NCBI GenBank assembly: GCA_041660925.1
Contig: JBAZVI010000002.1
Span: 19,906-83,905 of the forward strand
Origin: Elusimicrobiota bacterium
GTDB taxonomy: Bacteria > Elusimicrobiota > Elusimicrobia > UBA1565
Direction: 5' to 3'
DNA: 64,000 bases
The notes beneath the pieces are model-generated. The model worked only from the letters and a program-made list of their open reading frames with translations, made no database searches and was not told the origin of the DNA. Each line of letters opens with the position of its first letter. Within the stretch, counting starts at the first letter, position 1. The translations under genes were made by a program, and so were the position numbers. This document shows, piece by piece, positions 37,907 through 64,000 of the stretch.

Positions 37907-39535
37907 TCAGCGGTACTTGCCGCGGGCGACGGGCATGCGCCGGCCGATGCCGAAGGCCTTTCCGGTGATCTTCACTCCGGGAGCGGCCTGGCGGCGCTTG
38001 TACTCGGTGCGGTCGATGCGGTCGAGCACGTCGAGGACGAGGGCCTTGCGGTGTCCCCGGCGGACGATGGCGTCGAGCGTGCGGCCCTCCTCGACGTAGG
38101 CGCGCATGATGTCGTCGAGGACCTCGTAGTCGGGGAGGTCGTCCTGGTCCTTCTGTCCCGGCTTGAGCTCGGCCGAGGGGGCCTTGCGGATGGAGCTCTC
38201 GGGGATGCGCTCCCCTCCGCGGTTGATGAAGCGCGCGAGCTCGTAGACCGTGGTCTTGGGCACGTCCGAGATGAGGGAGAGCCCCCCCGCCATGTCGCCG
38301 TAGAGCGTGCAGTAGCCCACCGAGCACTCCGACTTGTTCCCCGTCGAGAGCAGCAGCGCCCCGCGCTGGTTGCTCAGCGCCATGAGGAGCATCCCGCGCA
38401 GGCGCGCCTGGACGTTCTGCTCGACGAGCGAGCCCGGCGCGGCGGTCTCTCCGAGCGCCCCGAGCGCGGCCTGGTGGATGGGGTTGATGGGGAGCATCAC
38501 CGTCTCGACGCCGAGGTTGCGCGCGAGGGCGAGCGCGTCGTCGACGCTCCCTTTGCTGGAGTACTTCGAGGGCATGAGGACGCCGAGCACGTTGCCCGGG
38601 CCGAGGGCGTCGGCCGCGAGCGTGCAGACGAGAGCCGAGTCGATGCCGCCGCTCAAACCCACGACGGCGCGGGTGAAGCCGCACTTGCGCGCGTAGTCGC
38701 GCAGGCCGAGCAGCAGGGCTTTGTAGATCTCCTCGGTCTCTCCCTCCGCGCGCAGGGCGATGGCCGGCGCGGCGGCGTCCGGGTCGACGAGGACGAGGTC
38801 CTCCCCGAAGCCGCGGGCGAGCGCGACGAGGCGTCCCTTCGCGTCGAGCGCCATGCTCGCGCCGTCGAAGACGAGCTCGTCGTTGCCGCCGACGAGGTTG
38901 CAGTAGAGGAACGGGAGGCGGTGGCGCCGGGCCTGGCTGCGCAGCATCTTCAGGCGGAAGCCGCGCTTGCCGCGGTAGTAGGGCGAGGCGGAGAGGTTGA
39001 GGAGGAGGTCCGCCTTGGCCCGGGCGAGCGCCGCGACCGGGTCGCGGTCATAGAGCGGCTTCTCCCAGAAGGAGCGGTCGTTCCAGGCGTCCTCGCAGAC
39101 GGTGACGCCGAGGCGGCGGCCTTCGAAGGGGATGGGTTCGTTGCGCGGGGAGGGCTCGAAGTAGCGGCCCTCGTCGAAGACGTCGTAGGTCGGGATGAGG
39201 GTCTTGAAGCGCCGGGCGGCGACCTTCCCGCGGTGCAGGAGGGCGGCGGCGTTGAAGAGGGCCTTGCCGCGGCCGCGGTTGGGCTCGGCGTAGCCTACGA
39301 GCATCGCGGTCCGGCGGGAGGCGCGGGCGAGCTCCCCGAGGGCCTTGAGGTTCGCGCGCACGAAGTCGGGCTGGTAGAGCAGGTCCCCCGAGGGGTAGCC
39401 GGGGATGCACAGCTCGGGGAAGAGCACGAGTCCGGCCCCGCGGCGCTCGGCCTCGGCGTAGGCGTGCAGGATGCGGTCGCGGTTCCCTCGGATGTCTCCG
39501 ACGGTGGTGTCGAGCTGGGCGAGCGCGACCTTCAT
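37907..39535 (-). CDS. nadE: glutamine-dependent NAD+ synthetase (N-terminal CN-hydrolase domain + C-terminal synthetase domain)
   Basis: 542 aa; nitrilase-like N-terminus (MKVALAQLDTTVGDI..., LFPELCIPGYP) and NAD synthetase PP-loop GLSGGIDS. Confidence 0.9.
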   Translation of the reverse strand: MKVALAQLDTTVGDIRGNRDRILHAYAEAERRGAGLVLFPELCIPGYPSGDLLYQPDFVRANLKALGELARASRRTAMLVGYAEPNRGRGKALFNAAALLHRGKVAARRFKTLIPTYDVFDEGRYFEPSPRNEPIPFEGRRLGVTVCEDAWNDRSFWEKPLYDRDPVAALARAKADLLLNLSASPYYRGKRGFRLKMLRSQARRHRLPFLYCNLVGGNDELVFDGASMALDAKGRLVALARGFGEDLVLVDPDAAAPAIALRAEGETEEIYKALLLGLRDYARKCGFTRAVVGLSGGIDSALVCTLAADALGPGNVLGVLMPSKYSSKGSVDDALALARNLGVETVMLPINPIHQAALGALGETAAPGSLVEQNVQARLRGMLLMALSNQRGALLLSTGNKSECSVGYCTLYGDMAGGLSLISDVPKTTVYELARFINRGGERIPESSIRKAPSAELKPGQKDQDDLPDYEVLDDIMRAYVEEGRTLDAIVRRGHRKALVLDVLDRIDRTEYKRRQAAPGVKITGKAFGIGRRMPVARGKYR

Positions 39536-39975
39536 CCGCGCAGTTCGCGGCAGAGGTCGGCGAAGATCCCGCCCGCGCCCATGAAGGCCGACTCGATCTC
39601 GTTCTGGACGGCGACGATGACGGGCGGCTGGACCATCTTCATGACCCGCGCGACGCCCTGCAGGCCCCAGGTGAGCATCTCCTGGGGGTCGATGCCGACG
39701 TCCTGGGCGGCGTCGGCGGTGCGGCGGAGGATGAAGACCGCGGACATCGGCAGCTCGCGCTCGATGAGGAGGATCCCGGCCAGAGAGCCGGCGACGACCT
39801 GGCGCACGATCTCGTCGGGGGCCTGCTTCGCGTCGCGGGTACCCTTGATGGCCGCCACGATGGTGCGTTTGACGAGGTCCGCCGTCTTGTCGGGGGCGTC
39901 CGGGACGCCCTTGAACTGGGAGACGACGATCTCCCGGGAGAGCTTCTCGAAATCGTAGGCGTTTTCAGCGTCCAT
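39532..39975 (-). CDS. hypothetical protein (147 aa)
   Basis: Trimmed from ORF 39532..40533 to ATG at 39973-39975 (MDAENAYDFEKL...); stop overlaps nadE start (ATGA); upstream part of the ORF is antisense to the divergent lipoprotein gene. Confidence 0.55.
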   Translation of the reverse strand: MDAENAYDFEKLSREIVVSQFKGVPDAPDKTADLVKRTIVAAIKGTRDAKQAPDEIVRQVVAGSLAGILLIERELPMSAVFILRRTADAAQDVGIDPQEMLTWGLQGVARVMKMVQPPVIVAVQNEIESAFMGAGGIFADLCRELRG

Positions 39976-40011
39976 CGCCTGTAATATACAAAAAAGTATC
40001 ATGTAGCCATC

Positions 40012-40605
40012 ATGACCGGGTCCCTGCGGCGGCTCCTCCTGCTGGCGGCGGCGCTCCCCGTGCTCGCCTGCGCGAACCCGCCGAACTTCGTGAAGAAGAC
40101 CCCCGTGCTGAGGACGCTCTACCGTCCCCCCTTCAAGCCGTACCTCGACAGCCCGGTCTTCTCCTTCGAGATCCGCCGCTCCTGGACGGGCCCCGAGCCC
40201 GTCGCCGGCGGGACGCGCTATCGCTCGAAGGACGGCGCGTCGACCATCGAGGTGGCCTTCCACGCCGAGAACGCGAAGGGCTGGCGGCCCGTCGCGGAGC
40301 TCCGCCGGGACATGGCCGCCTGGGGCTCGGTCGAGGACACGCACACCGTCGTCCCCGTTCGGGTCTCCACCGCGAGCGCCTACCGCGTCGCCTTCACGAG
40401 CTACGAATACGACCCCGAGTACCTGCTCGGCGCGAGTTCCCGCGTCACCTTCACGGACTTCGTGCTCGTGCCGGACCCCGAAGGGATCATCGTCGCCCGC
40501 CTGCGCGTACCCAAGGGCGACTATGAGCGCCACTTGCGGACCTTCAACGAACTCCTGCGCTCGATGGTCATCCGCACCGTGACGTCGGCCGCCGCCGAGG
40601 AGTGA
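40012..40605 (+). CDS. hypothetical lipoprotein
   Basis: 197 aa; signal peptide ending in a lipobox-like LAC (LLLAAALPVLACANPP); no family recognised. Confidence 0.6.
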   Translation: MTGSLRRLLLLAAALPVLACANPPNFVKKTPVLRTLYRPPFKPYLDSPVFSFEIRRSWTGPEPVAGGTRYRSKDGASTIEVAFHAENAKGWRPVAELRRDMAAWGSVEDTHTVVPVRVSTASAYRVAFTSYEYDPEYLLGASSRVTFTDFVLVPDPEGIIVARLRVPKGDYERHLRTFNELLRSMVIRTVTSAAAEE

Positions 40606-40847: not shown

Positions 40848-41384
40848 ATGGGCCTCACGCTGTGGCCGCGCACACGGGCGGGCGGGAAGGCGGAGAACCG
40901 CCGCGACCATCGCCACTTCTGCGACTTCAAGCTCTCGCTGCTGGACGGTTCCCGCCGCTCCGTCCCCCGCCCGGCGTTCCTCACCGACATGAGCCGCTCC
41001 GGCCTCGGCCTGCGCACGGACCTCCCCTTCTCCGTGGGCGACAAGCTGGGCGTCCAACTCGCGCTCGCGGGCGGCCGGCGCATCGACGCCTCGTGCACGG
41101 TGCGCTGGACGCGTTCGGAGGGCTTCCTCAACTCCTACGGTCTCGAGTTCGAGGGGCTCGCCCGACGCGACCGGGCAGGCATCGCCTCTCTGCTCGAGCC
41201 GGCGCCCGAAGTCGACCGCGTGGGGCTGTTCCTGCAGGCCGGCGCGAGCATCGTCCTCGTCCTGGTCTTCGCCGACCTCATGGCCGGCAGCGACGCCGTG
41301 CGCTCCTCCGTCGTCGGAGCCCTCCCCTACGTCCTCATCTTCGGCGGCTGCCTCGCCGGGCTCTGGGCCTCTTTCCGGTCGTAA
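40848..41384 (+). CDS. PilZ-domain protein with C-terminal membrane segment
   Basis: 178 aa; PilZ motifs RRDHR (RxxxR) and DMSRSGLGL (DxSxxG); hydrophobic C-terminus. Confidence 0.65.
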   Translation: MGLTLWPRTRAGGKAENRRDHRHFCDFKLSLLDGSRRSVPRPAFLTDMSRSGLGLRTDLPFSVGDKLGVQLALAGGRRIDASCTVRWTRSEGFLNSYGLEFEGLARRDRAGIASLLEPAPEVDRVGLFLQAGASIVLVLVFADLMAGSDAVRSSVVGALPYVLIFGGCLAGLWASFRS

Positions 41385-41488
41385 GAGCGCCCGAAACGTG
41401 ATTGTCGCGTTTGGGACCCATATAGGCCTTTAGTCCCATGTCGTCATGGGCCGTTCGGGGCACGCTATCCCTGACGGGAGGGCGCGCC

Positions 41489-41896
41489 ATGGCGGAAACG
41501 GATCGGCGCCGGCATCACCGATACGACCAGGAAGTCAGCGTACAGCTGCGGGGCCAGAACCCCTGCAGCGTCCTCCATGTCATCGATATCAGCATGGGCG
41601 GCCTGGGGTTCCAGCTCTCCGAGCCCCTGAAGGTCGGACAGAAGATCGCCTTCCGCATGGACCTCCCCGCAGGACCCGTGGACGGAGTCGCGGTCGTCCG
41701 CTGGCTCGCCCCCCACCATCTGGGCTGGCGCTGCGGCGTGGAGCTCCGGGACCCGGGCTACCTCGCCCGGCGGCGCATGCGCCTCTTCCTGGAGCCCTGG
41801 TCCTTCAACGCCCTGCGCGTCTTCGACCGCCTTCTCATCGTGCTCGCGCCGACCATCCTCGCGCTGGCCATCCTCGACTCGGTCTTCAGTCGTTGA
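41489..41896 (+). CDS. PilZ-domain protein with C-terminal membrane segment
   Basis: Trimmed from ORF 41438..41896 to ATG at 41489 (MAETDRRRHHRY...) with GGGAGGG 6 nt upstream; PilZ motifs RRRHHR and DISMGGLGF. Confidence 0.65.
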   Translation: MAETDRRRHHRYDQEVSVQLRGQNPCSVLHVIDISMGGLGFQLSEPLKVGQKIAFRMDLPAGPVDGVAVVRWLAPHHLGWRCGVELRDPGYLARRRMRLFLEPWSFNALRVFDRLLIVLAPTILALAILDSVFSR

Positions 41897-43844: not shown

Positions 43845-45158
43845 TTACTGGCCAGCAGCCAGTAACTCGCCCGTGCGTGCATCGAACACCGCCCAGCCCT
43901 CGCCGGGGGTGACGACGGCCACGCGCAGGCCGTCGGCGCTGTAGACGATGCGCGTGCCGGTGGCCGGGTGGATGAGCCCCTCGCGGGCCCACTCGGCGAA
44001 GCGCCGGCGCAGCCAGGGCTCCCCGTCGTGGAGCACGAACCAGCCGTCGCGCGTGCGCCACCACCAGCGGTCCTGATGGCGCACCATCCGAGGACTTCCG
44101 CTCGTCGGCGTCCACCAGCGCGCGCCCTTGCGGATGAGCCAGGCCCAGCGGCCCTCCCGGCCAGCGCCCCAGGCCGCGCCCGCGTGCAGCCACGCGGCGT
44201 TCTTCCCCGCGTGCCAGTGCGGCTTGCGCGCGCCGCCGTCGGCGGCGCGCCAGGCCGCATAGGCCGGTTCGGCGTCCGGCGGCTCGAGGCGCTCGATGAA
44301 GGCCGGCGGCGGGACGCTCGCGCGTACCGGCGTCCCGTCGGGCAGGGCCGCCGGGGTGAGCGCCCTGAGGTGGGCGAAGCTCGGCGCGGCGAGCTTCCCC
44401 GTCGGCGGGTCGAAGGGGTCCTTCCCCAGCCAGTGCTTGAGGGTCGGCGGCCGGAACTCGAAGGGACGACTCTTCTTCGCAGGCTTCGACGCGGCCTTCT
44501 TCGGGGCGCGCAGGGCCGCGAGCAGGGGCTCCGGCAGCGGCGCCATCCGGCCCTCGAAGTCCGCGCGGGCCTCGACCGCTTCGACTTCGCGCCAATCGTC
44601 GATGTCGGTCCCGTGCGTGGAGCCGCCGTTGCGGCGGTGTCCAGCTCTCTGTCCGCGCACGCGCTCGGAGGAGGCTCCTCCTGAAGCGTGGGAGTCCCCC
44701 CCCGCTTGCGCGGGGGCATCCGCATCGTTGGCGCGCGTCCATTCCCCCGCCCGGGATGCGCGGGCCGACAGGTCCGAGAAGGCCCCCGCGCCCACGGCGT
44801 CGCGCAGAGCTTCTCCTTCGCGCGGACGGGCGGAGTCCGTCGCGCGGGCCCGGGCCGAGCTGTGCTCTGAGAGCCGGGCGAGCGCCCGCTCGAGCCGAGT
44901 CAGGTCCTCGCGGTAGAAGGCTTCCACCCGCTCGGGAGTAGGCGACGACGCCTCCGGACGGGGCGGGTTTGGCACCGCGCCCTTCCTCGGCGGAGCGCCC
45001 GGCAGCAGCGAACGCAGCGCGCTCAATGTCCGGCAATCGCTCAGGAAGGGCGGCAGGTCGTTTTCGGGGAGCAGGAGCAGGGCGAACGAGAGCCCCGCCA
45101 GCAGGCCGCCCAGTCCGGCCGCCGCTTTGCGCCTCCAGGAGACCTCTCCGAAGGGCAT
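43845..45158 (-). CDS. hypothetical membrane-anchored protein with Trp-rich C-terminal domain
   Basis: 437 aa; N-terminal TM helix, long Ala/Arg/Ser-rich low-complexity region, W-rich C-terminal domain; coding status partly uncertain in high-GC DNA. Confidence 0.45.
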   Translation of the reverse strand: MPFGEVSWRRKAAAGLGGLLAGLSFALLLLPENDLPPFLSDCRTLSALRSLLPGAPPRKGAVPNPPRPEASSPTPERVEAFYREDLTRLERALARLSEHSSARARATDSARPREGEALRDAVGAGAFSDLSARASRAGEWTRANDADAPAQAGGDSHASGGASSERVRGQRAGHRRNGGSTHGTDIDDWREVEAVEARADFEGRMAPLPEPLLAALRAPKKAASKPAKKSRPFEFRPPTLKHWLGKDPFDPPTGKLAAPSFAHLRALTPAALPDGTPVRASVPPPAFIERLEPPDAEPAYAAWRAADGGARKPHWHAGKNAAWLHAGAAWGAGREGRWAWLIRKGARWWTPTSGSPRMVRHQDRWWWRTRDGWFVLHDGEPWLRRRFAEWAREGLIHPATGTRIVYSADGLRVAVVTPGEGWAVFDARTGELLAAGQ

Positions 45159-45236
45159 GGCATACTCTTGCTCCGGAGAGGTCCAGGGGGCAGGGCCGCG
45201 CGGGCCTCCCGATACAGGGCCTCCGGGCCTATATTG

Positions 45237-45902
45237 TCAGTGAAGGGGCGGTTTGGGAGGTCCTTCGAGCTTCGTCAGGCGCGCATCGTGGCTTCGGATC
45301 GTCTTCCCGTGCTCGGAGAGGATGTGGTCGTTCATGATGGTCTTCTCGTCGTTGCTCGCCATCCGCTGGAGGGCGACGCGGATGTAGTCCTTGAGCTCCG
45401 CGAAGTCCTTCTTCGTGGTGAACTCCGTGCGCATCGCCTTCAATTCTTTTTGAAGGGAGACGACCATCCCAGCGATGCGGTTGGTGATGGCCTTGTGGCT
45501 TTCCCCATCGGCCCTCAGCCAGCTGACATCGGTCTTCAGCGTGCTGACATCGGCTTTCAGGGTGCTGATGTCGGCTTTCATGGGCGCAAGTTCAGTCTTC
45601 GTCGCCATGTCTGCGATGTCCCGCTTCATGGCGATGCCAAGCTGCTGGATGTCATTCTTGGTCGCGATGGCCAGCGCTTGCAGATCGCGCTTGGACGCGG
45701 TGGAGAGTGCTTGCAGATCGCGCTTGGTCGCGGTGGAGAGTGCTTGCAGATCGCGCTTGGTCGCGGTGGAGAGTGCTTGCAGATCGCGCTTGGTCGCGGT
45801 GGAGAGCGCTTGCAGATCGCGCTTGGACGCGGTGGAGAGTGCTTGCAGATCGCGTTTGGTGGCGGGAGCGTTGAGTTCGGCGCTCTTCATGTCGTCTTCC
45901 AT
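45237..45902 (-). CDS. coiled-coil protein with six 11-residue tandem repeats (TKRDLQALSTA)
   Basis: Trimmed from ORF 45237..45995 to ATG at 45900-45902 (MEDDMKSAELN...) with AAGAGGGGAA upstream; repeats encoded by 33-bp tandem DNA repeats. Confidence 0.6.
   Translation of the reverse strand: MEDDMKSAELNAPATKRDLQALSTASKRDLQALSTATKRDLQALSTATKRDLQALSTATKRDLQALSTASKRDLQALAIATKNDIQQLGIAMKRDIADMATKTELAPMKADISTLKADVSTLKTDVSWLRADGESHKAITNRIAGMVVSLQKELKAMRTEFTTKKDFAELKDYIRVALQRMASNDEKTIMNDHILSEHGKTIRSHDARLTKLEGPPKPPLH
45676..45873. repeat. 33-bp tandem repeat, about six copies, in-frame within a CDS
   Basis: Unit gcttgcagatcgcgcttgg(a/t)cgcggtggagag(t/c) repeated head-to-tail, last copy degenerate. 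Confidence 0.85.
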
Positions 45903-46042
45903 GGTAGCAGTTCCCCTCTTTTCGGATAAGGGCCCAAGGTCCCATACTTGCCCGGGTCTGCCCAAGTTACGATTGAGAGGTGCGAATAGTTCCATTGAGG
46001 GAAGCGCGGCCGGACGGGAGAAGGGATGAAAGCTGATGCTCC

Positions 46043-46183
46043 CTAGCGGGAGCGCGAGCTCTTCAGGTCCAGCTCGAAGGCGATCTTCGAACGATTCTCC
46101 CAGAAATGCGCCATCTTCTGCCTTGCCGACTTGCGGGGACGCGCAGAAGAGGCCGCGGCTTTTCTTGGTCGAGAGGCGGTCAT
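46043..46183 (-). CDS. hypothetical small basic protein (46 aa)
   Basis: ATG overlaps gmd stop (ATGA); Arg/Lys-rich; could equally be non-coding. Confidence 0.2.
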
Positions 46184-47190
46184 TTCTTTATGAGCTTGTC
46201 GGGGTCGAGGCCGGCGAGTTTGAGGTCCTCGCGCACCATGAGGCGCACGAGCTCCTTGAAGCCCACCTTCGGCTTCCAGCCCAGGGCCTTGCGCGCCTTG
46301 GAGGCGTCGCCGATGAGGAGGTCCACCTCGGTCGGGCGCAGGTAGCGCGGGTCGTAGCGGACGAAGTCCTTCGGGTCGAGCTCGACGAGCCCGAAGGCCT
46401 CGTCGAGGAACTCGCGCACGGTGTGGGTCTCGCCGGTGGCGATGACGAAGTCGTCGGCCTTGGGCTGCTGGAGCATGAGCCACATCGCCTCGACGAAGTC
46501 CTTGGCGTAGCCCCAGTCGCGCTTGGAGTCGAGGTTCCCCAGGTGCAGGTGTTCCTGCTTCTTGGCCAGGATGTTGGCCAGCGCCATCGTGATCTTGCGG
46601 GTCACGAAGGTCCCGCCGCGGCGCGGGGACTCGTGGTTGAAGAGGATGCCGTTGGCGGCGTAGATGCCGTACGCCTCGCGGTAGTTCACCGTGGTCCAGT
46701 AGGCGTAGACCTTGGCGCAGGCGTAGGGGCTGCGCGGGTAGAAGGGCGTGGCCTCCGTCTGCGGCACCTGCTGCGCCTTGCCGAACATCTCGGAGCTCGA
46801 GGCCTGGTAGAAGCGCGTCGGGATGCCCGTGTCGCGGATGGCGTCGAGGAGGCGGGTCGTGCTCAGGCCCGTCACGTCGCCGGTGTACTCGGGAGTGTCG
46901 AAGCTCACGCGCACGTGGCTCTGGGCGCCCAGGTGGTAGATCTCGTCGGGCACGAGCTTGCGCAGGATGTGGTTCAGGCCCGAGGAGTCGCTCAAGTCCC
47001 CGTAGTGCAGGAAGAGCTTCACGCCCTCGGTGTGCGGGTCGCGGAAGATGTGGTCGATGCGCTCGGTGTTGAACGAGCTCGAGCGCCGGATGACCCCGTG
47101 CACCTCGTAGCCCTTCTCCAGCAGGAGCTCCGCCAGATAGGACCCGTCCTGCCCCGTGATGCCCGTGATCAGCGCCTTTTTCGTTGCCAT
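46180..47190 (-). CDS. gmd: GDP-mannose 4,6-dehydratase
   Basis: 336 aa; [20 protein letters not shown]-terminus and SDR catalytic YACAK motif typical of Gmd. Confidence 0.9.
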
Positions 47191-47225
47191 GTCGTCCGCG
47201 ATTCTAGCAGTTTTCGTCCGAGGAG

Positions 47226-47462
47226 CTACTCGAGTGGAAGCGAATCGATAGTGGCAGGCGGGGAGTCTAAACCGGCGAGGAAACGCGCTACGAATTTTGC
47301 AGCGATGAGCCCGGCGAGCAGGATGAGGATAAGTCGGAGTTGCGTGGCGTGGAAGCGCCGCACCTTCATGTACTTCTTGTAGACGACACCGTCGCGCGTG
47401 ACCTTCCCGATGAATTTGCGACGGTATAATACGCGTTCCCAGCGGGAAGAGGGCATAGGCAC
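47226..47462 (-). CDS. hypothetical small membrane protein (78 aa)
   Basis: ORF track only; one hydrophobic helix; lower-GC region. Confidence 0.35.
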
Positions 47463-47532
47463 ATTTCTCTGTTGTCTCTCTCCGTTTGGAGCGAGAGTCG
47501 GATGTGCGCGGAAGGACGGTGCATCCTACAAA

Positions 47533-48687
47533 TTACAGGAGCATCTCTTCATCCCGATGGCATGGGAGCGTCGAGGGCTTTGATTTCTGCTCATGCAATA
47601 GTGCTAGCTCATGTCCGCGTCGAAGCATCGGCCGCTCAAGCAGATAGAAACTGATTGTGGCGCAGATGAACGCCGCAAGGACGTTCAAAGGGAATGCCTG
47701 TGCGAGACCCAGCGGCCGTCCTGCGAGCTCCGACCCGCTTACGAGGAATATCTGTTGCCAGAGGTAGAGGCCGTAAGAGATTCTCCCTACCCAGCGCAGC
47801 CACGGCAATTCCAGCATGCGACCTGCCAAGGTGTGGGGATTCAGCATCGTGCATGCGACCAGCGCGGCAGCGGATATCCCAAGGAGCATCGTCATGAGCG
47901 GAGGACGAAAGATGACGATCGCAAAGAAGCCGAAGAAAAGGAGTGGGAACTTCGATGGGGAAAGGACGCGTCGGGAGCGTGCTAGCCACGTGGGATACTC
48001 GAATAGAATCGCGGTGAGGCATCCCCAAAGCAGGCCGTCGAACCTCAGATCCGTCCGTGCGGAGCGGTTGAGGCCGGGTATAAACGCATCGACGATCCCG
48101 AATTGCCCATCGAGATTCCTCCAGATCGGGAGAATGAGTACGGCAAGAACGAGAGCGGTCCTTCCATTCCGTATGCCCAGCATCGCGAGACATACAGGCC
48201 AAAGCAAGTAGAACTGTTCTTCGATGGATAGCGACCATATGTGCGCGGTGTACCATCCGTGTCCCGGCGCATATGTGAGCAGGTTGCGAATGTGGAGAAG
48301 ACAAGTCATCCATTCTCCGCGAGAGACATTCACTCCAAAGAGTATCGAGATAACCGCCAAAATGAATAGGAATAACGCGTATGCGGGGATGATTCGGAAT
48401 GCTCGACGGAGATAAAAAGGCAGAAGGGCGAAATCTCCGATTTTCCGTTTATCGCGTATCAGTCTGTTCGTGATGAGAAAACCACTGAGCGTAAAAAAAA
48501 GGTCCACCCCGCAACTGCCGTTGCGCAGGATATTATCGAAAATCCAGGAGAGGACTCTGCCGGGTGGGGTCGGCATGGCTGCGCTGGCATGGGCGACCAA
48601 GACGAGGAGTATAGCGACGCCTCTCCATCCATCCAAAGTCGGGAGATGCCCTTGTAAGAATGAACGCGCATCCTTTTCGCGTTGCAT
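47533..48687 (-). CDS. acyltransferase family 3 membrane protein (OafA/OatA-like O-acyltransferase)
   Basis: Trimmed from ORF 47533..49065 to ATG at 48685-48687 (MQREKDARSFLQGHLPTLDGWRGVAILLVLVAH...); polytopic, acyltransferase-3-like N-terminal motif. Confidence 0.7.
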   Translation of the reverse strand: MQREKDARSFLQGHLPTLDGWRGVAILLVLVAHASAAMPTPPGRVLSWIFDNILRNGSCGVDLFFTLSGFLITNRLIRDKRKIGDFALLPFYLRRAFRIIPAYALFLFILAVISILFGVNVSRGEWMTCLLHIRNLLTYAPGHGWYTAHIWSLSIEEQFYLLWPVCLAMLGIRNGRTALVLAVLILPIWRNLDGQFGIVDAFIPGLNRSARTDLRFDGLLWGCLTAILFEYPTWLARSRRVLSPSKFPLLFFGFFAIVIFRPPLMTMLLGISAAALVACTMLNPHTLAGRMLELPWLRWVGRISYGLYLWQQIFLVSGSELAGRPLGLAQAFPLNVLAAFICATISFYLLERPMLRRGHELALLHEQKSKPSTLPCHRDEEMLL

Positions 48688-48689
48688 CG

Positions 48690-49739
48690 CTAGAAGATGC
48701 GGCTTCGGAATACGAGGATCTGATAGGGGCGCATAAGATGGCGCCCGCCCATCTCGATCAGGAGTTCCGGCAGGTAGCGGCGCGGCTCGAAGAGCGGGAT
48801 CCAGTGCCGATCGAAGAGTGCCTGCGGGCATTCGATGTAGCGGCTGGTGGTATTCGCGATGACGATGTAGTCGCGCAGGCGGTAGCGCCAGGCTTTCGCC
48901 TTGAGGCCAGCGGCGAGGTTTGCAAACGGAGGCGGCTTCGGAGTTCCTTTCTCGAGGATCGGCCGCATAACGGCGAGTTCCCGGACCACCCAGGTCAGGG
49001 CGAACCATAGCGCGGGAGCGTCGGAGAGTACCGCTCCATTCGGCCGGCGGTAGGTGTAGAACCAAAGGCCCTTTGCCCCTTCGAGAATGGCGTGATAACT
49101 CATGAACCGGAGCTCAAGAATGTCAGGGAAGCGGCCGATGGCCGGTTTCCCCGACGGGGGTTTTAGATAATCGCGCCAATCCATCGCTTGCAGAACCGCC
49201 CATACCGGCTTCCCATTTGCTGCGGCGACGGTCATCCTCACCTGTTCACCTAGTGATTCGAGGGGCCGATGGGGCACTGGGTACCAATCCACCATCAGGG
49301 CGTCGCCGCTGGCCGAGTAGCGCTCGGCGGAAGCTCCCCGACCGACGACGAAGGCCGTGGGCGCTCCGTGGGACCAGCCCTTCACTTTACGCTCGAAGGC
49401 GGCGAGCTCTTCCGGAGGGGTCCTGGCGACGTCGGGTTCGTCCTGGAGATACCAGGCGGCGAGTGGGAACCCTTTCGTCGAGACGGTGGAGGTCAGAAGT
49501 TCGTGTGGATGGACGAGAATCCGCATCCGCTCCTTCCGAGCCGCCGATGCAATCGCGTGGAGGGTCGAGGGCTCCCGCGAATAACTCTGGAGCGCGTTGA
49601 AACCTTCCCTGCTCAGTAGCGCGACGGCAGCCGGGTCGTCGACCCCAAATAGGCCGAGCGGGAACCATTGCCCCGGGGCGGACGGTTTTCGAGAGCAGCC
49701 GCAGGTTATGATGAGAAGTCCGATGAAGAGTCTCTTCAC
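48690..49739 (-). CDS. hypothetical lipoprotein/secreted protein
   Basis: From ORF 48690..49826; likely GTG start at 49737-49739 overlapping capD stop (GTGA), giving a signal-like N-terminus KRLFIGLLIITCGC. Confidence 0.55.
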   Translation of the reverse strand: MKRLFIGLLIITCGCSRKPSAPGQWFPLGLFGVDDPAAVALLSREGFNALQSYSREPSTLHAIASAARKERMRILVHPHELLTSTVSTKGFPLAAWYLQDEPDVARTPPEELAAFERKVKGWSHGAPTAFVVGRGASAERYSASGDALMVDWYPVPHRPLESLGEQVRMTVAAANGKPVWAVLQAMDWRDYLKPPSGKPAIGRFPDILELRFMSYHAILEGAKGLWFYTYRRPNGAVLSDAPALWFALTWVVRELAVMRPILEKGTPKPPPFANLAAGLKAKAWRYRLRDYIVIANTTSRYIECPQALFDRHWIPLFEPRRYLPELLIEMGGRHLMRPYQILVFRSRIF

Positions 49740-51598
49740 GGCGACCGGGTGGGTGCTGCGGGCTGGTATGCAGGGACCAAGTCTTTCATCATGTTCCGGA
49801 TGGGCGCAGAGTCCGCAAGCGAGCACAAGCGCTTAAGTTCGCTGATCTGGTCGCGCAAGATCGAGAGGTCGGCCTCTTCGGGGACGGCGGCGAAGATGTC
49901 GGGGTGCCCGGTGTCCATGCGCACATCGTGTGGACGAAACAGCTCCTCGTACATCTTCTCTCCGGGACGCATCCCTGTGAAGACGATCTTGATGTCGCGA
50001 TCGGGTTCGAATCCCGAGAGAAGGATGAGGTTGCGTGCGACGTCCAACACTTTGACGGGTTCGCCCATGTTCAGCACGAAGATCTCCCCGCCTCTGCCCA
50101 GGAAGGCTGCATGAAGGATGAGCTGGACGGCCTCTTCCGTGGTCATGAAGTAGCGGGTCACATCAGGATGCGTGACCGTGACCGGACCTCCCTGGGCGAT
50201 CTGCTCCTTGAAGATGTTGATCGCGCTGCCGGAACTCCCCAAGACGTTGCCGAATCGGACCGATATGAACTTCGTCGAAGACGTCCCGGAGAACGCCCGG
50301 ATGATCATTTCCGCCATGCGCTTCGAGACGCCCATGACACTGGTGGGGCGGACGGCCTTGTCCGTCGATATGAAGAGGAAGCGCTCGACGCCGTGCCGGG
50401 CGCACTTCTCGGCGAGGAGATGGGTGCAGAGGGTGTTGTTCTTGACCGCTTCCTGGGGATTCGATTCCATGAGCGGGACGTGCTTATGCGCGGCGGCATG
50501 GAAGACCAGTTGTGGCCTGTGTGTGACGAAGAGGTTTTCCAGCAGGTCGGCGTCTCCGACGTCGCCCGCGATGGCGAGGCGCGTGACGACGGAGTTCATG
50601 GCGGAAAGCTCCCGGTCGATGTAGAACAAGTCGGTGTTGTGCTTCTCCAGAAGCAGGAGCTTCGAGGGACCGAATCGCATAATCTGCCTAGCGAGCTCCG
50701 AGCCGATGGTCCCCCCCGCGCCGGTCACCAGTACGGTCTTGCCCTGAAGGATGCCTCGGACCGAGGCGAGGTCGGTCTTCACAGACTTGCGAGGGAGGAG
50801 GTCGGCGAGCTCGATCTTGCGCATGCCGCGGGGCTGAGAGTTGTCCTTGCGCAGGGTTTCCTCGAGGGTGGGGACTGTCTTGAACTGGACTTTGAAGCCG
50901 TCTGAGTGGGGGCAGATTTCCATAAGACTCTTGATCAGCGGGCCGCGAGAGTGGTTCACGGCCACGACGATCTCATCGATCTGCTTCTGGGCGATGATCC
51001 TCGGCAGATCTTGACGGCAGCCGAGGATGGCGATTCCATGGATGCTCCGGTGGAGCTTGGCAGGATCGTCATCGATGAAGCCGATGACCCTGTGCGTCTT
51101 GTAGTCTCGGCGTTGCATGTCGCGCACGATGCTTTCCCCCAGGTCTCCGGCGCCGAAGATGAGCACTCTGGGTAGGCTCGAAGTGTCCTGCTGATAGCGC
51201 CATTCGCGCGTGAGCCGGATGGCGAACCGGATCGAGCCGACCAGGATGAGGGTAAGGAGCGGGTCGATGAAGAGCACCGATCTCGGGAATCGCGGGTGCT
51301 GGATGAGCATGAGCGAGGCGATGATGAAGATCTGGCTGGAGCTGACGGCCTTGAACAGGGCGTTCAAGTCCGACATGCTCGCATAGCGCCAGACGCCGGC
51401 GTAGGCTCCGAAGTACGCGAAGGCTCCGGTGCGGAGAAGGACGACGATCCCGATCGTCGACGCGCAGATGCTCAACTCATGCCCGGGCACCTGGAAGTCG
51501 AATCGGAGAAGGAATGCAAGAGCGTAGGAGACGAGGAAAGCCGAGATGTCCGCGAAGAGGACTAAGGGGCGGCTGAATGCAATGAGTCTCTTATACAT
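49736..51598 (-). CDS. membrane-anchored nucleotide-sugar 4,6-dehydratase (CapD/PglF/WbpM family)
   Basis: From ORF 49736..51652, probable ATG at 51596-51598 (MYKRLIAF...); N-terminal TM helices then SDR domain with LVTGAGGTIGSEL. Confidence 0.8.
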   Translation of the reverse strand: MYKRLIAFSRPLVLFADISAFLVSYALAFLLRFDFQVPGHELSICASTIGIVVLLRTGAFAYFGAYAGVWRYASMSDLNALFKAVSSSQIFIIASLMLIQHPRFPRSVLFIDPLLTLILVGSIRFAIRLTREWRYQQDTSSLPRVLIFGAGDLGESIVRDMQRRDYKTHRVIGFIDDDPAKLHRSIHGIAILGCRQDLPRIIAQKQIDEIVVAVNHSRGPLIKSLMEICPHSDGFKVQFKTVPTLEETLRKDNSQPRGMRKIELADLLPRKSVKTDLASVRGILQGKTVLVTGAGGTIGSELARQIMRFGPSKLLLLEKHNTDLFYIDRELSAMNSVVTRLAIAGDVGDADLLENLFVTHRPQLVFHAAAHKHVPLMESNPQEAVKNNTLCTHLLAEKCARHGVERFLFISTDKAVRPTSVMGVSKRMAEMIIRAFSGTSSTKFISVRFGNVLGSSGSAINIFKEQIAQGGPVTVTHPDVTRYFMTTEEAVQLILHAAFLGRGGEIFVLNMGEPVKVLDVARNLILLSGFEPDRDIKIVFTGMRPGEKMYEELFRPHDVRMDTGHPDIFAAVPEEADLSILRDQISELKRLCSLADSAPIRNMMKDLVPAYQPAAPTRSP

Positions 51599-51673
51599 GG
51601 TCGCAGAACTCGAGGTATCTCGGGTGCCGAGCCGTTCGGCTCGGGTGAGCATATCCGGCGGATAGAGGAGTAT

Positions 51674-53575
51674 TCACCGGGCGGTGCTGTCGACGCGGAG
51701 CAGGGTCTTCACTCCAGCCCCGGACTCCGACAGTTCCCATGCGCGCGAGAACTCCGCTAGCGGGAGGGGTTCGGAAAGCATAGATTCCGGGGAGAGTCGT
51801 GCTAGGATCTTCAGGGCCTCCTCGAAGTCTTCCCCGCTGCTTCCAACGGAGCCGATGACGGACTTGTCACTGCCGACGATGGACTCGAAATTGAAGGGGA
51901 CCTCTGCGTAGGGAAAGCCCAGGAGGAGCAGGGTGGCGCCCGCGCGGCTCTTCGATAGCGCCGAGTGCAATGCGCCGACATCTCCTGTCGCCTCGATGAG
52001 GATGTCGAAATCCGCAAGGGCTGCGAGGTCTGTCGATACGGCGATTCCCGCCTCCTTGAGGACGCTTAGGCGTCCTTCGTTGCGGTCGAAGGTCGTCACG
52101 GATTCGCCGCGCAGTGACAGGACTTTCGCGGCGAGATGCCCGATGGGGCCGGCGCCGATGACTGCATGGCGAAGTACTCCACGAGCGCCGTGTGTCGAAG
52201 CATCGAGGCGACGCAGGGCCTTCAAGACAACCGCCGTGGGCTCGCATAGACAGGCCGCTCGAAGCGAAACCTCTGGAGGGATGCGATGGACGAATCGCCC
52301 CGGCACGACGACGTATTCGGAATACCCGCCGTCGCGTCCCATCACACCCACTTCAGCCCTTTGAGAACAGCCAATGGCGTTCCCGCGCTGGCAGGGTCCG
52401 CAATCGCCGCAGCCCTGGATGCACTCAGCGACGACGAGGTCTCCTTCCGCGACGTTCTCGACGCGCGGCCCCGCTGCGACCACGGTGCCGGAGAACTCAT
52501 GCCCAGGGACGATGGGATAACGGGCAAGGCCGGTCCTATAGTATCCGAGGGAGCCGTGGTAGATGTCGAGGTCAGTTCCGCAGACGCCCTCGAAGGCGAC
52601 GCGGATGAGCACGTCTCCGGGGCGGATCTCTGGCAGTTCGATGTCGACGTACGCCGCGTCACGCGGCCCGCGGACGACGACGGCCCGCGAACGACGGTCG
52701 AAGAAAAGGCGCTCGCGCTTGAGGGGGTTGTCCATCGCGGCGCCGTCGAGGACTCCTGCGCAGGTCCCGCGGAGCTTCTCCCAGCGAAAACGAAGGATCT
52801 CCGGGGTCTTGGTGAGGAGTTTCCCTTCTCTCGCTGCCCTGCGAAGGTCGCCCGCAGTACGGCGGGCTTCCTGGACCAACGCGACCGGCAGATCCCGGCG
52901 GTTCAAGACGCCTATCCACTTGGCGGCCTGCCCTTCGCGATAGAATCTGCGACGTACCTGGCTCCAGTTCTCGTCATGGATATGACGAATGTCGGCCTTG
53001 GCGGCGTAGACGACGACGAAGCCTTGCTCCATCCAGTGCTTCGCCCATTCGATGTCCTCGAGCCCCGGCAGGGTCTCGTCGAAGGGGTGTTTCTCCCAGA
53101 GGTCCCGGCGGATCGCCGAGTTCGCGTTGTTGGCGAAGAAGTCCGGAGGTGTCAGGATTCGGTCTGCGACGCCGAACGTGCGCTGGAAGTCGAGCTGCTC
53201 GGAAAACTTCGAGCGATCGTCGCCGGATTGCCGCCCGTAGACCATCGCGGTGCGCCCGTCGCGGAGGGGCTTTATCAGTTCTTCAAGCCAATGCATGCCC
53301 GCGGGAACGGTGTGTGCGGAGACGATGGCGAGGAAGCGCCCCTCGGACGCTTGGATCCCCACGTTGAGGGAGTGCCCGAAGGTGAAGTCGTGACGGGTCA
53401 GGCGAACGAGGCGATGCGTCCGTTCCGAGGCGATTTGCCGGGTGTGGTCGAAGGAGCCGGAATCCACGACGATGATCTCAAAGTCTCTGTAGCTTTGCGC
53501 GGCAAGGCCGTCGAGCAGGACCGGCAGATGCCGCTCTTCGTTGAATGCGCGGATGATGATCGATGTCTCAGGCAT
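51674..53575 (-). CDS. fusion protein: N-terminal family-2 glycosyltransferase domain + C-terminal zinc-dependent alcohol dehydrogenase (MDR) domain
   Basis: 633-aa continuous ORF; GT2-like start (IIIRAFNEE, IIVVDSGS) then MDR-like region (RVAFEGVCGTDL, GHEFSGTV, Rossmann GAGPIGHLA). Confidence 0.7.
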   Translation of the reverse strand: MPETSIIIRAFNEERHLPVLLDGLAAQSYRDFEIIVVDSGSFDHTRQIASERTHRLVRLTRHDFTFGHSLNVGIQASEGRFLAIVSAHTVPAGMHWLEELIKPLRDGRTAMVYGRQSGDDRSKFSEQLDFQRTFGVADRILTPPDFFANNANSAIRRDLWEKHPFDETLPGLEDIEWAKHWMEQGFVVVYAAKADIRHIHDENWSQVRRRFYREGQAAKWIGVLNRRDLPVALVQEARRTAGDLRRAAREGKLLTKTPEILRFRWEKLRGTCAGVLDGAAMDNPLKRERLFFDRRSRAVVVRGPRDAAYVDIELPEIRPGDVLIRVAFEGVCGTDLDIYHGSLGYYRTGLARYPIVPGHEFSGTVVAAGPRVENVAEGDLVVAECIQGCGDCGPCQRGNAIGCSQRAEVGVMGRDGGYSEYVVVPGRFVHRIPPEVSLRAACLCEPTAVVLKALRRLDASTHGARGVLRHAVIGAGPIGHLAAKVLSLRGESVTTFDRNEGRLSVLKEAGIAVSTDLAALADFDILIEATGDVGALHSALSKSRAGATLLLLGFPYAEVPFNFESIVGSDKSVIGSVGSSGEDFEEALKILARLSPESMLSEPLPLAEFSRAWELSESGAGVKTLLRVDSTAR

Positions 53576-54527
53576 CGGTGGGCCCGACGGCGGCCGGAGC
53601 GAGTACGCGGAGGAGGTTCAGGATCGTATTCTCGTGGACCCTTGCCGCGGAGGATGGACTGCTGTTCGCGTTGTGCGGGGAAAGCAGGCAGTTGCTGTGG
53701 CGGCGCAACGGGCTGTCCGCCGGAAGCGGTTCTCGCTCGTAGACATCGAGTGCGGCTCCGGCAAGTCGTCTCTCGTCGAGCGCTTGCGCCAGCGCGGACT
53801 CCACGACGACCGGGCCTCTCGAAGTGTTGATGAGGTACCCCGAAGAGCGCATCCTCTTCAAGGCCGCGGCGTCGATGAGACTGCGGCTGGTCTCGTTGAG
53901 GTCGGGGTGGAGGGAGACGAAGTCCGACTCTTCGAGGAGTCGTTCCCGGTTCACAATCGACATCCCGACGGCGTCCAGATAACCTCTTTCCGGGATGACA
54001 GGGTCGCAGCCGAGGATGCGCATGCCGAATGCCGCCGCGCGGCGGCCTACTGCCCGGCCGATGTTTCCCACCCCGATGATTCCCAAGGTCTTTTCCTTGA
54101 GTGCGAAGAGTTGGGGCTTCTCCCAAAGGCCATTGCGCATATCCTGATCCATGCGGGCGAGACCGCGCGCAAAGAGGAGCATGTATCCAAGGACAGTGTC
54201 TGCGACGGGCTCAGTGAAAGCATCGGGTGTGTTTCTAACGGGGATTCCGCGAGCCGCCGCCGCGACCTTGTCGATCGAATCGATGCCTGTTCCCCATTTC
54301 GAGATGACCTTGAGTCGCGGAGCGGCGTCCAGGACCTTTGCGGTGATCTGGTCGTCTCCGCAGATGATTCCGTCGACGTCCTTGATCAGCTCGAGAAGCT
54401 CTCCTTCCGTCAGGCGCTCGCGGACTCTGGCGATGACAAGCTCGCAACCGGCCTCCTCGAGGCGCCTACGGTAGATGTCGAGGACGGGCATGACGTACGG
54501 CGCGGAGATTAAGACGCGAGACTTCAT
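53568..54527 (-). CDS. D-isomer-specific 2-hydroxyacid dehydrogenase (phosphoglycerate dehydrogenase-like)
   Basis: 319 aa; NAD-binding GIIGVGNIGRAVG and 2-hydroxyacid dehydrogenase-like catalytic region. Confidence 0.8.
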   Translation of the reverse strand: MKSRVLISAPYVMPVLDIYRRRLEEAGCELVIARVRERLTEGELLELIKDVDGIICGDDQITAKVLDAAPRLKVISKWGTGIDSIDKVAAAARGIPVRNTPDAFTEPVADTVLGYMLLFARGLARMDQDMRNGLWEKPQLFALKEKTLGIIGVGNIGRAVGRRAAAFGMRILGCDPVIPERGYLDAVGMSIVNRERLLEESDFVSLHPDLNETSRSLIDAAALKRMRSSGYLINTSRGPVVVESALAQALDERRLAGAALDVYEREPLPADSPLRRHSNCLLSPHNANSSPSSAARVHENTILNLLRVLAPAAVGPTDA

Positions 54528-56247: not shown

Positions 56248-56269
56248 GGAGGGATTCGCTCTAGCGTAG

Positions 56270-57298: not shown

Positions 57299-57432
57299 CG
57301 GTCCTCCCGCCTCGCCGGATGCTCCATGCTGTTCGTGAAATCGTACAAAATTGCCTCTTCGATGAGGCAATCCCGTCCGACTCAGTTTGATGCAGCTATA
57401 AGGTAAGAGAGAACGGGCGGCATGCCGTCAAC

Positions 57433-62792: not shown

Positions 62793-62840
62793 TCAGTAAT
62801 GTCCCGAAATCATTTTGAAGGGAAGTCTTGTCGCCGGATG

Positions 62841-63905: not shown

Positions 63906-64000
63906 CGAGAGTAGAAGACGCTAGGCGTTCTCATGGGAGTCCTTGGGCGCGTGGTCATGTCGTTGTCCTGCTGGAAAGATTCCAAAGGAGGAGCTCCTTC

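What the first reader, a model, noticed from the sequence alone, without database searches (positions are those of the whole stretch)
45676..45873. Six in-frame 33-bp tandem repeats encoding an 11-residue repeat in a coiled-coil protein
Near-perfect head-to-tail DNA repeats produce TKRDLQALSTA repeated six times. Such arrays are prone to slipped-strand or recombinational copy-number change in multiples of three, giving length-variable proteins, often surface, phage-related or contingency proteins.
Basis: seen in the sequence. Interest (0 to 1): 0.55.

Follow-up and report, generated by a model that had tools for sequence, protein, structure and literature searches.

The report
Length-variable coiled-coil rod protein gene
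The 33-bp repeats are real and encode a stretch of helical rod in a small, soluble coiled-coil protein of an uncharacterised, mostly Elusimicrobiota family whose members differ mainly in how many such units they carry; it is a tidy but fairly ordinary case, and not a surface, phage or on/off switch gene.

Summary
Observation confirmed. A 33-bp, in-frame array (6.3 copies, 93% match) lies at 45657-45865, on the minus strand, in a 221-aa gene (45237-45902) that is identical to a hypothetical protein of an Elusimicrobiota MAG.

Each unit carries the published beta-layer-type motif A-T-K-x-D-h. PDB 6h9l contains the same 11-spaced array. The motif runs through the N-terminal 130 residues at spacings of 11 (x7), 9, then 7, 7, 7. 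Hydrophobic periodicity is 3.69, and AlphaFold2 predicts one confident helix through the array.

The C-terminal ~95 residues, ending in H-x-x-R-x-x-x-x-E, define a family with no Pfam or NCBIfam model. Named members are mostly Elusimicrobiota. Members carry about 0-11 heptad or hendecad units.

Near-identical contigs encode 6-, 4- and 2-unit alleles (221, 199 and 177 aa). Five other near-identical clusters in the family also differ only by whole units. Short-read assembly collapse could produce the 4-unit allele, so polymorphism within this species is likely but not proven.

The protein has no signal peptide or transmembrane segment, no phage context and no frame-shifting potential, so the surface/phage/contingency idea is not supported. 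Function is unknown. My best reading is an oligomeric rod whose length changes by repeat slippage, about 1.6 nm per unit. Interest is modest.

The parts
45237..45902 (-). Gene for a 221-aa soluble coiled-coil protein (stop codon included). Identical to NCBI MFA6028781.1, 'MAG: hypothetical protein WC969_02880 [Elusimicrobiota bacterium]'.
   Evidence: ORF list and translation. Exact cluster look-up. GC3 of 0.76 in this frame. Homologues found.
45913..45918 (-). Shine-Dalgarno-like GAGGGG, 10 nt upstream of the ATG at 45902.
   Evidence: Read from the sequence. Function is inferred.
45663..45860 (-). Six near-perfect 33-bp units encoding (T/S)KRDLQAL(ST/AI)A, residues 15-80. The three central units (45696-45794) have identical DNA.
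   Evidence: TRF. Unit table and synonymous/non-synonymous counts. 111-nt perfectly periodic stretch.
45597..45662 (-). Two older, degenerate 11-residue units: TKNDIQQLGIA and MKRDIADMATK (15 and 17 nt differences from the core unit).
45591..45608 (-). M-A-T-K-T-E (residues 99-104). This is the only motif copy at 9-residue (nonad) spacing and a full match to the published beta-layer consensus [aliphatic]-A-T-K-[polar]-[D/E]. The AF2 helix breaks at residues 102-104.
   Evidence: Motif spacing. Motif scan. AF2 secondary structure. Consensus from PMC4786415.
45519..45581 (-). Three heptad units, MKADIST LKADVST LKTDVSW (residues 108-128). This is the repeat type that dominates the rest of the family.
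   Evidence: TRF 21-bp array at 45506-45580. Spacing 7, 7, 7. Family alignment.
45240..45518 (-). Non-repeat C-terminal module (residues 129-221) that defines the family. It contains a second ATK-like motif, FTTKKD (45405-45422; the AF2 helix breaks at residue 163), and the signature HDARLTKLE (45264-45290) with H205, R208 and E213.
   Evidence: Alignments: H, R and E are invariant in A2; R is invariant and H and E nearly so in A3. Profile search gives 101 proteins. Motif position.

Best explanation
The array is the recently amplified part of a repeat-built coiled-coil rod.

The gene encodes a small cytoplasmic protein of 221 aa with no signal peptide and no membrane anchor. Its N-terminal ~130 residues are made of one short motif, (A/L)-(T/S)-K-x-(D/E)-h-x-x-L, laid down at 11-residue spacing (eight units, six of them near-perfect), then once at 9 residues, then three times at 7 residues. 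A ~95-residue C-terminal helical module follows and defines an uncharacterised family enriched in Elusimicrobiota.

The 11-residue units most likely form a continuous, nearly straight hendecad coiled-coil segment in a homo-oligomer, plausibly a trimer. The canonical beta-layer-type motif acts at the N-terminal cap (PATKRD) and at the single nonad (MATKTE).

Because the central units are identical in DNA, replication slippage or unequal recombination adds or removes whole units. This always stays in frame and changes rod length by about 1.6 nm per unit.

Shown: the array, its reading frame and its motif; the family and its constant C-terminal module; unit-number differences between relatives.
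Inferred: oligomeric state, a helical conformation for every unit, real polymorphism within this species, and any role for rod length.
For: Array and frame.

Motif identity: phmmer against PDB hits 6h9l (E = 1.8e-9), whose sequence carries (ATKEDIEALRK)n at the same 11-residue spacing, and the Tcar0761 alpha/beta coiled-coil construct 5apz. The consensus [aliphatic]-A-T-K-[polar]-[D/E] and its occurrence in DUF3782 and DUF1640 come from PMC4786415.

Soluble: maximum hydropathy is 0.61.

Family: exhaustive HMMER finds 665 hits, including the full-length homologue P0010 (residues 10-217, E = 4e-17) and about 22 of the top 150 with the same C-terminal module. The profile of that module finds 101 proteins, and most named ones are Elusimicrobiota MAGs. 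No Pfam or NCBIfam family passes its cut-off.

Unit-number change: 6-, 4- and 2-unit alleles sit in one 90% cluster. The 4-unit contig shows a clean 66-bp indel, flanks 98.8-99.7% identical, and the gene otherwise 100% identical. Whole-heptad indels of 1 to 9 units are the only internal differences in five other near-identical clusters. Across 104 sequences with the C-terminal signature, length (63-221 aa) correlates with repeat residues (r = 0.70).

Recent DNA-level amplification: the central units are identical at synonymous sites, and units decay towards the 3' end.
Against: - The alleles come from metagenome assemblies. The 6-unit array has a 111-nt perfectly periodic stretch, so k-mers of 78 or less repeat within it. 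The 4-unit allele is exactly the loop-collapse product.
- No reads could be inspected.
- AF2 was run on a monomer, so it cannot show oligomer state or beta-layers.
- The older units keep an aliphatic residue (I, I, M) at the beta1 position, which would be solvent-exposed in a plain hendecad helix. This hints that at least those units may not be simple helix.
- No conserved partner gene was found and no experiment exists, so the biological role of rod length is conjecture.
Confidence: 0.6

Rival explanations
1. The array is real, but the copy-number differences (6, 4 and 2 units) are assembly artefacts. Short-read de Bruijn assemblers collapsed the perfect repeats, and the true copy number in this species is fixed and possibly even larger than 6.
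For: The 111-nt perfectly periodic stretch means k-mers of 78 or less repeat within it. The 4-unit allele equals the collapse of the three identical units to one, and the gene is otherwise 100% identical. The 4-unit and 2-unit alleles sit on short contigs of 3.7 kb and 2.7 kb.
Against: The three alleles come from different sources and from distinguishable strains: flanks are 98.8-99.7% identical, and the 2-unit allele carries a D->E change. A read of about 113 nt or more resolves the array. Collapse from 4 to 2 units needs k of 50 or less. Assemblers did recover long perfect arrays in this family, for example P0250. Unit number also differs between diverged family members whose units are not identical, which cannot be collapse.
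Confidence: 0.3
2. Each 11-residue unit forms a beta-layer in a trimer, so the array is an alpha/beta coiled coil of the Tcar0761 kind rather than a continuous hendecad helix.
For: Every unit carries A-T/S-K-x-D-h, the beta-layer motif. The protein hits the Tcar0761 construct 5apz. The degenerate units keep an aliphatic beta1 residue that a plain helix would expose to solvent. 6h9l has three chains of identical sequence in its entry.
Against: The published rule ties beta-layers to insertions of 2 or 6 residues (nonads, hexads), whereas 7+4 = 11 is helix-compatible. Periodicity of 3.69 matches 11/3. AF2 predicts a helix at pLDDT 96-98 through the array and breaks it only at the nonad. The amplified units have Thr rather than an aliphatic residue at beta1.
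Confidence: 0.25
3. The 11-mer repeats form a lipid- or granule-binding amphipathic helix of the phasin, apolipoprotein or perilipin type, not a coiled coil.
For: An 11/3 periodicity is typical of such helices (my own knowledge). There are sub-threshold hits to Phasin, Apolipoprotein and PhaR models in this protein and in relatives. One relative is auto-named 'phasin' by JGI.
Against: The hydrophobic seam covers only three of eleven positions (L-T-L, about 65 degrees) and is flanked by D and S. That is far narrower than a membrane-binding face. All the hits are below curated cut-offs. The closest solved relative is a coiled-coil stalk.
Confidence: 0.07
4. It is a surface, phage-derived or contingency (phase- or antigenic-variation) protein.
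For: Tandem in-frame repeats are common in such proteins (general knowledge). The gene lies at the edge of a lower-GC glycan island. There are weak PHROG hits, e.g. phrog_19577 at 5.8e-8.
Against: There is no signal peptide, lipobox or transmembrane segment. No phage genes lie within about 20 kb. PHROG and PADLOC hits are restricted to the coiled-coil region and scattered over unrelated families. A 33-bp unit cannot shift the frame. Family members occur as single genes in varied housekeeping contexts.
Confidence: 0.05

Closest known systems
PDB 6h9l, 'Uncharacterized protein' (139 aa, three chains of identical sequence in the entry). From memory, unverified here, it belongs to the Lupas/Hartmann laboratory's work on prokaryotic head-neck-stalk proteins related to MCUR1/CCDC90B.
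   Same: It has the same 11-residue unit with the same motif and spacing: ATKEDIEALRK at 11, 11, 11, 7, 11 against ATKRDLQALST at 11 x7. The L/I-T-L seam on an 11/3 net is identical. E = 1.8e-9.
   Different: 6h9l has an N-terminal domain of about 49 residues before the array, which aligns with DUF1640-type proteins. The window protein starts its array at residue 14 and has a different C-terminal module of about 95 residues.
Tcar0761 of Thermosinus carboxydivorans and the alpha/beta coiled coil (PDB 5apz; Hartmann et al. 2016, eLife 5:e11861, PMC4786415).
   Same: Both are stand-alone prokaryotic coiled-coil proteins built from many near-perfect tandem copies of the (M)ATKxD(I/L) motif flanked by heptads. 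There is a sequence hit at E = 4e-3.
   Different: Tcar0761 repeats are nonads (9 residues), which were shown to form beta-layers. Here the spacing is 11 residues, with a single nonad. Whether Tcar0761 shares the C-terminal module could not be tested.
DUF1640 / CCDC90-like family (Pfam PF07798; MCUR1, CCDC90B and prokaryotic homologues).
   Same: The ATKxD motif sits at the start of a coiled-coil stalk. Many prokaryotic members carry the same 11-residue arrays, for example P0002, P0003, P0009 and P0017.
   Different: Those proteins have an N-terminal head domain and a C-terminal transmembrane anchor. The window protein has neither, and PF07798 does not hit it.
In-frame variable-number tandem repeats in bacterial coiled-coil and fibrous proteins in general (for example streptococcal M-like proteins and trimeric autotransporter stalks; from general knowledge).
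   Same: DNA-identical, in-frame units allow change by whole units and so give length variants of a rod.
   Different: Those are secreted surface proteins under immune or phage selection. This one is predicted to be cytoplasmic, and its function is unknown.

Membership tests
DUF1640 / CCDC90-like (PF07798) | Match to the Pfam model at or above its gathering score | tested here: not met
   PF07798 is not among the hits at E <= 1 for the window protein. The relative P0010 scores 20.2 bits against a cut-off of 33.5.
DUF1640 / CCDC90-like (PF07798) | N-terminal head domain before the beta-layer neck | tested here: not met
   The first ATK motif is at residues 14-16, and only 13 hydrophilic residues precede it.
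DUF1640 / CCDC90-like (PF07798) | C-terminal transmembrane anchor | tested here: not met
   Maximum 19-residue Kyte-Doolittle hydropathy is 0.61. The C-terminus is ...RLTKLEGPPKPPLH.
DUF1640 / CCDC90-like (PF07798) | ATKxD-type motif at the start of the stalk | tested here: met
   P-A-T-K-R-D-L at residues 13-19.
Alpha/beta coiled coil, Tcar0761 / DUF3782 type | Motif [aliphatic]-A-T-K-[polar]-[D/E] | tested here: inconclusive
   There is a full match in MATKTE and near matches in IATKND and IAMKRD. The six amplified units read T-A-(T/S)-K-R-D, with Thr in place of the aliphatic residue.
Alpha/beta coiled coil, Tcar0761 / DUF3782 type | Motif repeated at 9- or 6-residue spacing (nonads or hexads) | tested here: not met
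   Spacing is 11 x7, then 9 once, then 7, 7, 7.
Alpha/beta coiled coil, Tcar0761 / DUF3782 type | Three-stranded beta-layer actually formed in a trimer | not testable with these tools
   Only monomer AF2 is available. Coordinates of 6h9l and 5apz cannot be inspected.
Alpha/beta coiled coil, Tcar0761 / DUF3782 type | PD-(D/E)XK nuclease domain (in the DUF3782 endonucleases) | tested here: not met
   No such Pfam hit. Tcar0761 itself also lacks this domain.
Hendecad (11/3) coiled coil | 11-residue sequence period with hydrophobic periodicity near 3.67 | tested here: met
   Period 33 bp = 11 aa. The spectral maximum is at 3.69 residues. The L-T-L seam is narrow on an 11/3 net.
Hendecad (11/3) coiled coil | Uninterrupted helix through the repeats, packed in an oligomer | tested here: inconclusive
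   The AF2 monomer has helix 16-101 at pLDDT 96-98. Oligomer packing was not modelled.
Uncharacterised 'PATKxD ... DHExRLtxLE' small coiled-coil family (proposed here) | Conserved C-terminal module of about 95 residues with H, R and E of H-x-x-R-x-x-x-x-E | tested here: met
   H, R and E are invariant in alignment A2. In A3, R is invariant and H and E are at least 90% conserved. The profile finds 101 proteins, down to E = 7e-36. P0010 aligns over residues 10-217.
Uncharacterised 'PATKxD ... DHExRLtxLE' small coiled-coil family (proposed here) | Variable N-terminal block of 7- and/or 11-residue K-x-D-h repeats; no transmembrane segment; about 100-220 aa | tested here: met
   (about 0-11 units; length against repeat residues r = 0.70).
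Phase-variable contingency locus (simple-sequence-repeat switch) | Repeat changes shift the reading frame or alter a promoter, giving on/off expression | tested here: not met
   The unit is 33 bp (a multiple of 3) and lies inside the coding region. All three alleles are in frame.
Phage structural or lysis protein | Specific family match plus phage gene neighbourhood | tested here: not met
   PHROG hits are confined to the coiled-coil region and scattered across families. The neighbours are GDP-mannose dehydratase, glycan genes, PilZ genes and NAD synthase.

The most novel reading that the evidence does not exclude
These proteins are a lineage-specific (Elusimicrobiota-enriched) class of cytoplasmic 'adjustable rulers'. 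They would be oligomeric rods whose length is retuned quickly by slippage of DNA-identical heptad or hendecad units, and whose constant C-terminal module docks them to a partner. In several lineages that partner would belong to sugar-nucleotide or polysaccharide machinery, or to the AdoHcy-hydrolase/methyltransferase genes they sit next to. Strain-level rod length would then set a physical spacing in the cell. In addition, the 11-spaced ATKxD array could be a third, undescribed spacing of the beta-layer fibre.
Probability: 0.1. Interest if true: 0.6.

Novelty: new member of a known kind. Interest (0 to 1): 0.33.

Why it matters
The result turns an anonymous hypothetical protein into a defined object. 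It is a repeat-built coiled-coil rod using the ATKxD motif known from beta-layer and MCUR1-type stalks, and it belongs to a family that no curated database model captures.

The family offers natural series of rods that differ only in unit number. That could interest coiled-coil structural biologists and protein designers. It also raises a structural question that is easy to test: is an 11-spaced ATKxD unit a helix or a beta-layer?

Biologically it gives no new mechanism yet. Function is unknown, and in-frame repeat variation in fibrous proteins is a familiar phenomenon.

Tried and rejected
- **Pfam, NCBIfam, PHROG and PADLOC scans** of the protein and relatives gave only sub-threshold matches of the coiled-coil type.
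- **Word-indexed homology search** with the non-repeat C-terminal 120 aa found only its own cluster. The exhaustive HMMER search was needed to find the family.
- **Metagenome pattern scan** gave one true locus, the same contig as L001. Three others (L003-L005) were low-complexity false positives.
- **Genome-collection scans.** The first found nothing. The profile of the whole module was too diverse to scan with. A subfamily profile found two Elusimicrobiota MAGs only.
- **Exact look-up** of the window protein and of P0005 in the contig index found nothing on record. The 2-unit allele P0006 could not be looked up, so its DNA was not seen.
- **Profile of the C-terminal module against PDB sequences** gave generic coiled coils only.
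- **Papers.** Adlakha et al. 2019 (Structure) and Martinez-Goikoetxea & Lupas 2023 (J Struct Biol) are not held in the library. Statements about them are from memory or from secondary citation.
- **Conserved operon partner.** Ten contexts were inspected and none is universal.
- **Rfam and promoter/terminator scans** found nothing informative near the gene.

Full report

Yes. Tandem Repeats Finder reports a 33-bp period with 6.3 copies, 93% matches and no indels (score 355) at 45657-45865. The next best tandem repeat in the 64-kb window scores 100.

The array is translated on the minus strand in ORF 45237-45995. The ATG at 45902 has GAGGGG 10 nt upstream, and it is the start used in both public gene calls. 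It gives a 221-aa product.

In coding register, the units at 45663-45860 read TKRDLQALSTA, SKRDLQALSTA, TKRDLQALSTA three times with identical DNA, and SKRDLQALAIA. Two degenerate units follow (TKNDIQQLGIA and MKRDIADMATK, 45597-45662). After them come three heptads, MKADIST / LKADVST / LKTDVSW, which TRF also detects as a 21-bp array at 45506-45580. The central units are identical even at synonymous sites, and divergence increases towards the 3' end of the array. That is the signature of recent amplification at the DNA level rather than of selection on the peptide.

**2. Where does it come from?**

The protein is identical to NCBI MFA6028781.1, 'MAG: hypothetical protein WC969_02880 [Elusimicrobiota bacterium]', on a 556-kb contig. 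The window has 68% GC.

The gene lies directly downstream of GDP-mannose 4,6-dehydratase (46180-47190). It sits at the 3' edge of a minus-strand block with lower GC, about 0.60 against 0.70. That block encodes an acyltransferase_3, a Polysacc_synt_2 dehydratase, glycosyltransferases, a DegT aminotransferase, a cytidylyltransferase, methyltransferases and a radical-SAM/SPASM enzyme. Immediately downstream is a 437-aa protein with an N-terminal membrane or signal segment and no family match. There are no phage genes, and no Rfam element occurs anywhere in the window.

**3. What is the repeat?**

A phmmer search of PDB sequences gave two specific hits:
- 6h9l (E = 1.8e-9), whose sequence contains (ATKEDIEALRK)n.
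- 5apz, the GCN4-Tcar0761 construct with (MATKDDIAN)n.

Hartmann et al. 2016 (PMC4786415) define the motif [aliphatic]-A-T-K-[polar]-[D/E] as the beta-layer element. They found it in DUF3782 coiled coils, in stand-alone bacterial coiled-coil proteins such as Tcar0761, and at the start of the stalk of DUF1640 (MCUR1/CCDC90) proteins.

In the window protein, K-x-[D/E]-h occurs at residues 16, 27, 38, 49, 60, 71, 82, 93, 102, 109, 116 and 123. The spacings are 11 x7, 9, 7, 7, 7. One more copy lies at residue 164. The whole N-terminal 130 residues are therefore one motif at three spacings. 6h9l shows 11, 11, 11, 7, 11.

Hydrophobic periodicity in the array is 3.69, against 11/3 = 3.67. On an 11/3 net the apolar seam is just L9-T2-L6, the same as in 6h9l. 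That seam is narrow, as expected for a coiled-coil core and unlike a lipid-binding face.

**4. What is the protein?**

It has no signal peptide or transmembrane segment; maximum hydropathy is 0.61. No Pfam or NCBIfam model passes its cut-off. The best is DUF1451 at 25.6 against 26.1 bits, a coiled-coil match.

The word-indexed search found almost nothing. The exhaustive HMMER search found 665 proteins at E <= 1e-3. Two classes stand out among the top 150:
- About 48 have an N-terminal head, ATKxD repeats and a C-terminal transmembrane tail. These are DUF1640-like; P0017, for example, scores 32.0 bits on PF07798.
- About 22 are small soluble proteins that share the window protein's C-terminal module of about 95 residues, ending in ...L-x-D-H-E-x-R-L-t-x-L-E. 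P0010 aligns over residues 10-217 at 36% identity.

In the 15-sequence alignment of the module (A2), H, R and E are invariant. Its profile retrieves 101 proteins from the 5.8-billion-protein set. Five of the nine hits that carry an organism name are Elusimicrobiota MAGs. A genome-collection scan with a subfamily profile returned only two loci, both Elusimicrobiota.

Most members use heptads of the LKTDVSV type. Hendecad arrays like this one are the minority: 11 of 104 sequences have three or more hendecad spacings. The window protein is the longest sequence in the set.

**5. Does copy number vary?**

The 90%-identity cluster of this protein has three members:
- 221 aa, 6 units: NCBI and JGI, i.e. 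the window.
- 199 aa, 4 units: JGI metagenome 3300014208.
- 177 aa, 2 units: ENA, with one additional D->E substitution.

The 4-unit contig is 98.8% and 99.7% identical in the flanks. It is 100% identical in the gene apart from one clean 66-bp deletion that removes two of the three identical units.

In five other near-identical clusters of the family, the only internal differences are deletions or insertions of 1, 2, 4, 6 or 9 intact heptads. Across 104 sequences with the C-terminal signature, total length (63-221 aa) tracks the number of repeat residues (r = 0.70).

Caveat: the 6-unit allele contains a 111-nt perfectly periodic stretch, so k-mers of 78 or less repeat within it. The 4-unit allele is exactly what a de Bruijn loop collapse would give. 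I therefore treat variation between species as established and variation within this species as likely but unproven (about 0.6-0.7).

**6. How it most likely works.**

The DNA-identical units allow slippage or unequal recombination. The outcome is always in frame and adds or removes about 1.6 nm of rod per unit (11 x 0.148 nm; and standard helix geometry). The protein is most likely a homo-oligomeric rod, plausibly a trimer like the beta-layer proteins, and 6h9l has three identical chains in its entry. It would have a constant C-terminal module and a variable-length N-terminal stalk.

What the rod does is unknown. Ten genomic contexts show no universal partner. Four lie next to sugar-nucleotide or polysaccharide genes (window, L007, L009, L014). 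Three lie next to AdoHcy hydrolase with a SAM methyltransferase (L006, L008, L015). Three are miscellaneous. Several of these share ancestry, so the associations are weak.

**7. Comparison with known families, and verdict.**

The protein works like the stalks of DUF1640 proteins and of 6h9l, and like Tcar0761. It fails the membership tests for DUF1640: no head, no transmembrane segment, no model match. It also fails the test for the nonad alpha/beta fibre, because the spacing is 11 and not 9 or 6. It belongs to a family with its own C-terminal module that curated libraries do not describe.

The surface/phage/contingency suggestion does not.

The phenomenon is a new member of a known kind. The protein is usefully characterised but not surprising, so interest is modest.

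Noticed in passing
window 47200-64000 (minus strand): A block of about 17 kb with lower GC (about 0.60 against 0.70 upstream) encodes glycan-biosynthesis genes: acyltransferase_3, Polysacc_synt_2, a GT2-alcohol-dehydrogenase fusion, a 2-hydroxyacid dehydrogenase, a cytidylyltransferase, DegT, GT1, two methyltransferases and a radical-SAM/SPASM enzyme. It may be a horizontally acquired surface-glycan island.
   Followed up: partly
window 43845-45158 (minus strand): A 437-aa gene lies directly downstream of the coiled-coil gene. It has an N-terminal membrane or signal segment and a Trp/Arg-rich C-terminal region, and it has no hit in Pfam, NCBIfam, PHROGs or PADLOC. The adjacency is kept in the related contig L001.
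   Followed up: partly
window 40848-41384 and 41438-41896 (plus strand): Two adjacent small PilZ-domain genes, which are candidate c-di-GMP receptors.
   Followed up: no
window 45141-45183: A 13-nt inverted repeat (92% complementary, 17-nt loop) spans the start codon region of the 437-aa gene, just downstream of the coiled-coil gene's stop. No T-run follows it.
   Followed up: no
window 29402-29502: A 45-bp tandem repeat (2.2 copies, 74% match) lies inside the ORF at 28009-29598.
   Followed up: no
L006, L008, L015 (family members P0064, P0169, P0168): In three loci the small coiled-coil gene sits next to S-adenosylhomocysteine hydrolase, with a SAM-dependent methyltransferase nearby, and with YaeQ in two of them. 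This is either lineage synteny or a functional hint.
   Followed up: partly
L011 347-760 and 915-2309: A family member (P0163) lies next to a group II intron reverse transcriptase (RVT_1 + GIIM).
   Followed up: no
L003, L004, L005: The metagenome contigs returned by the pattern scan are low-complexity 'ETYKRDLQKRPTK'-type repeats readable in several frames. They are not relatives but false positives caused by the KRDLQ word.
   Followed up: yes
window 59381-61168 and 39532-40533 (minus strand): Two sizeable ORFs (595 aa and 333 aa) have no Pfam match at E <= 1e-5. The first lies inside the glycan island.
   Followed up: no
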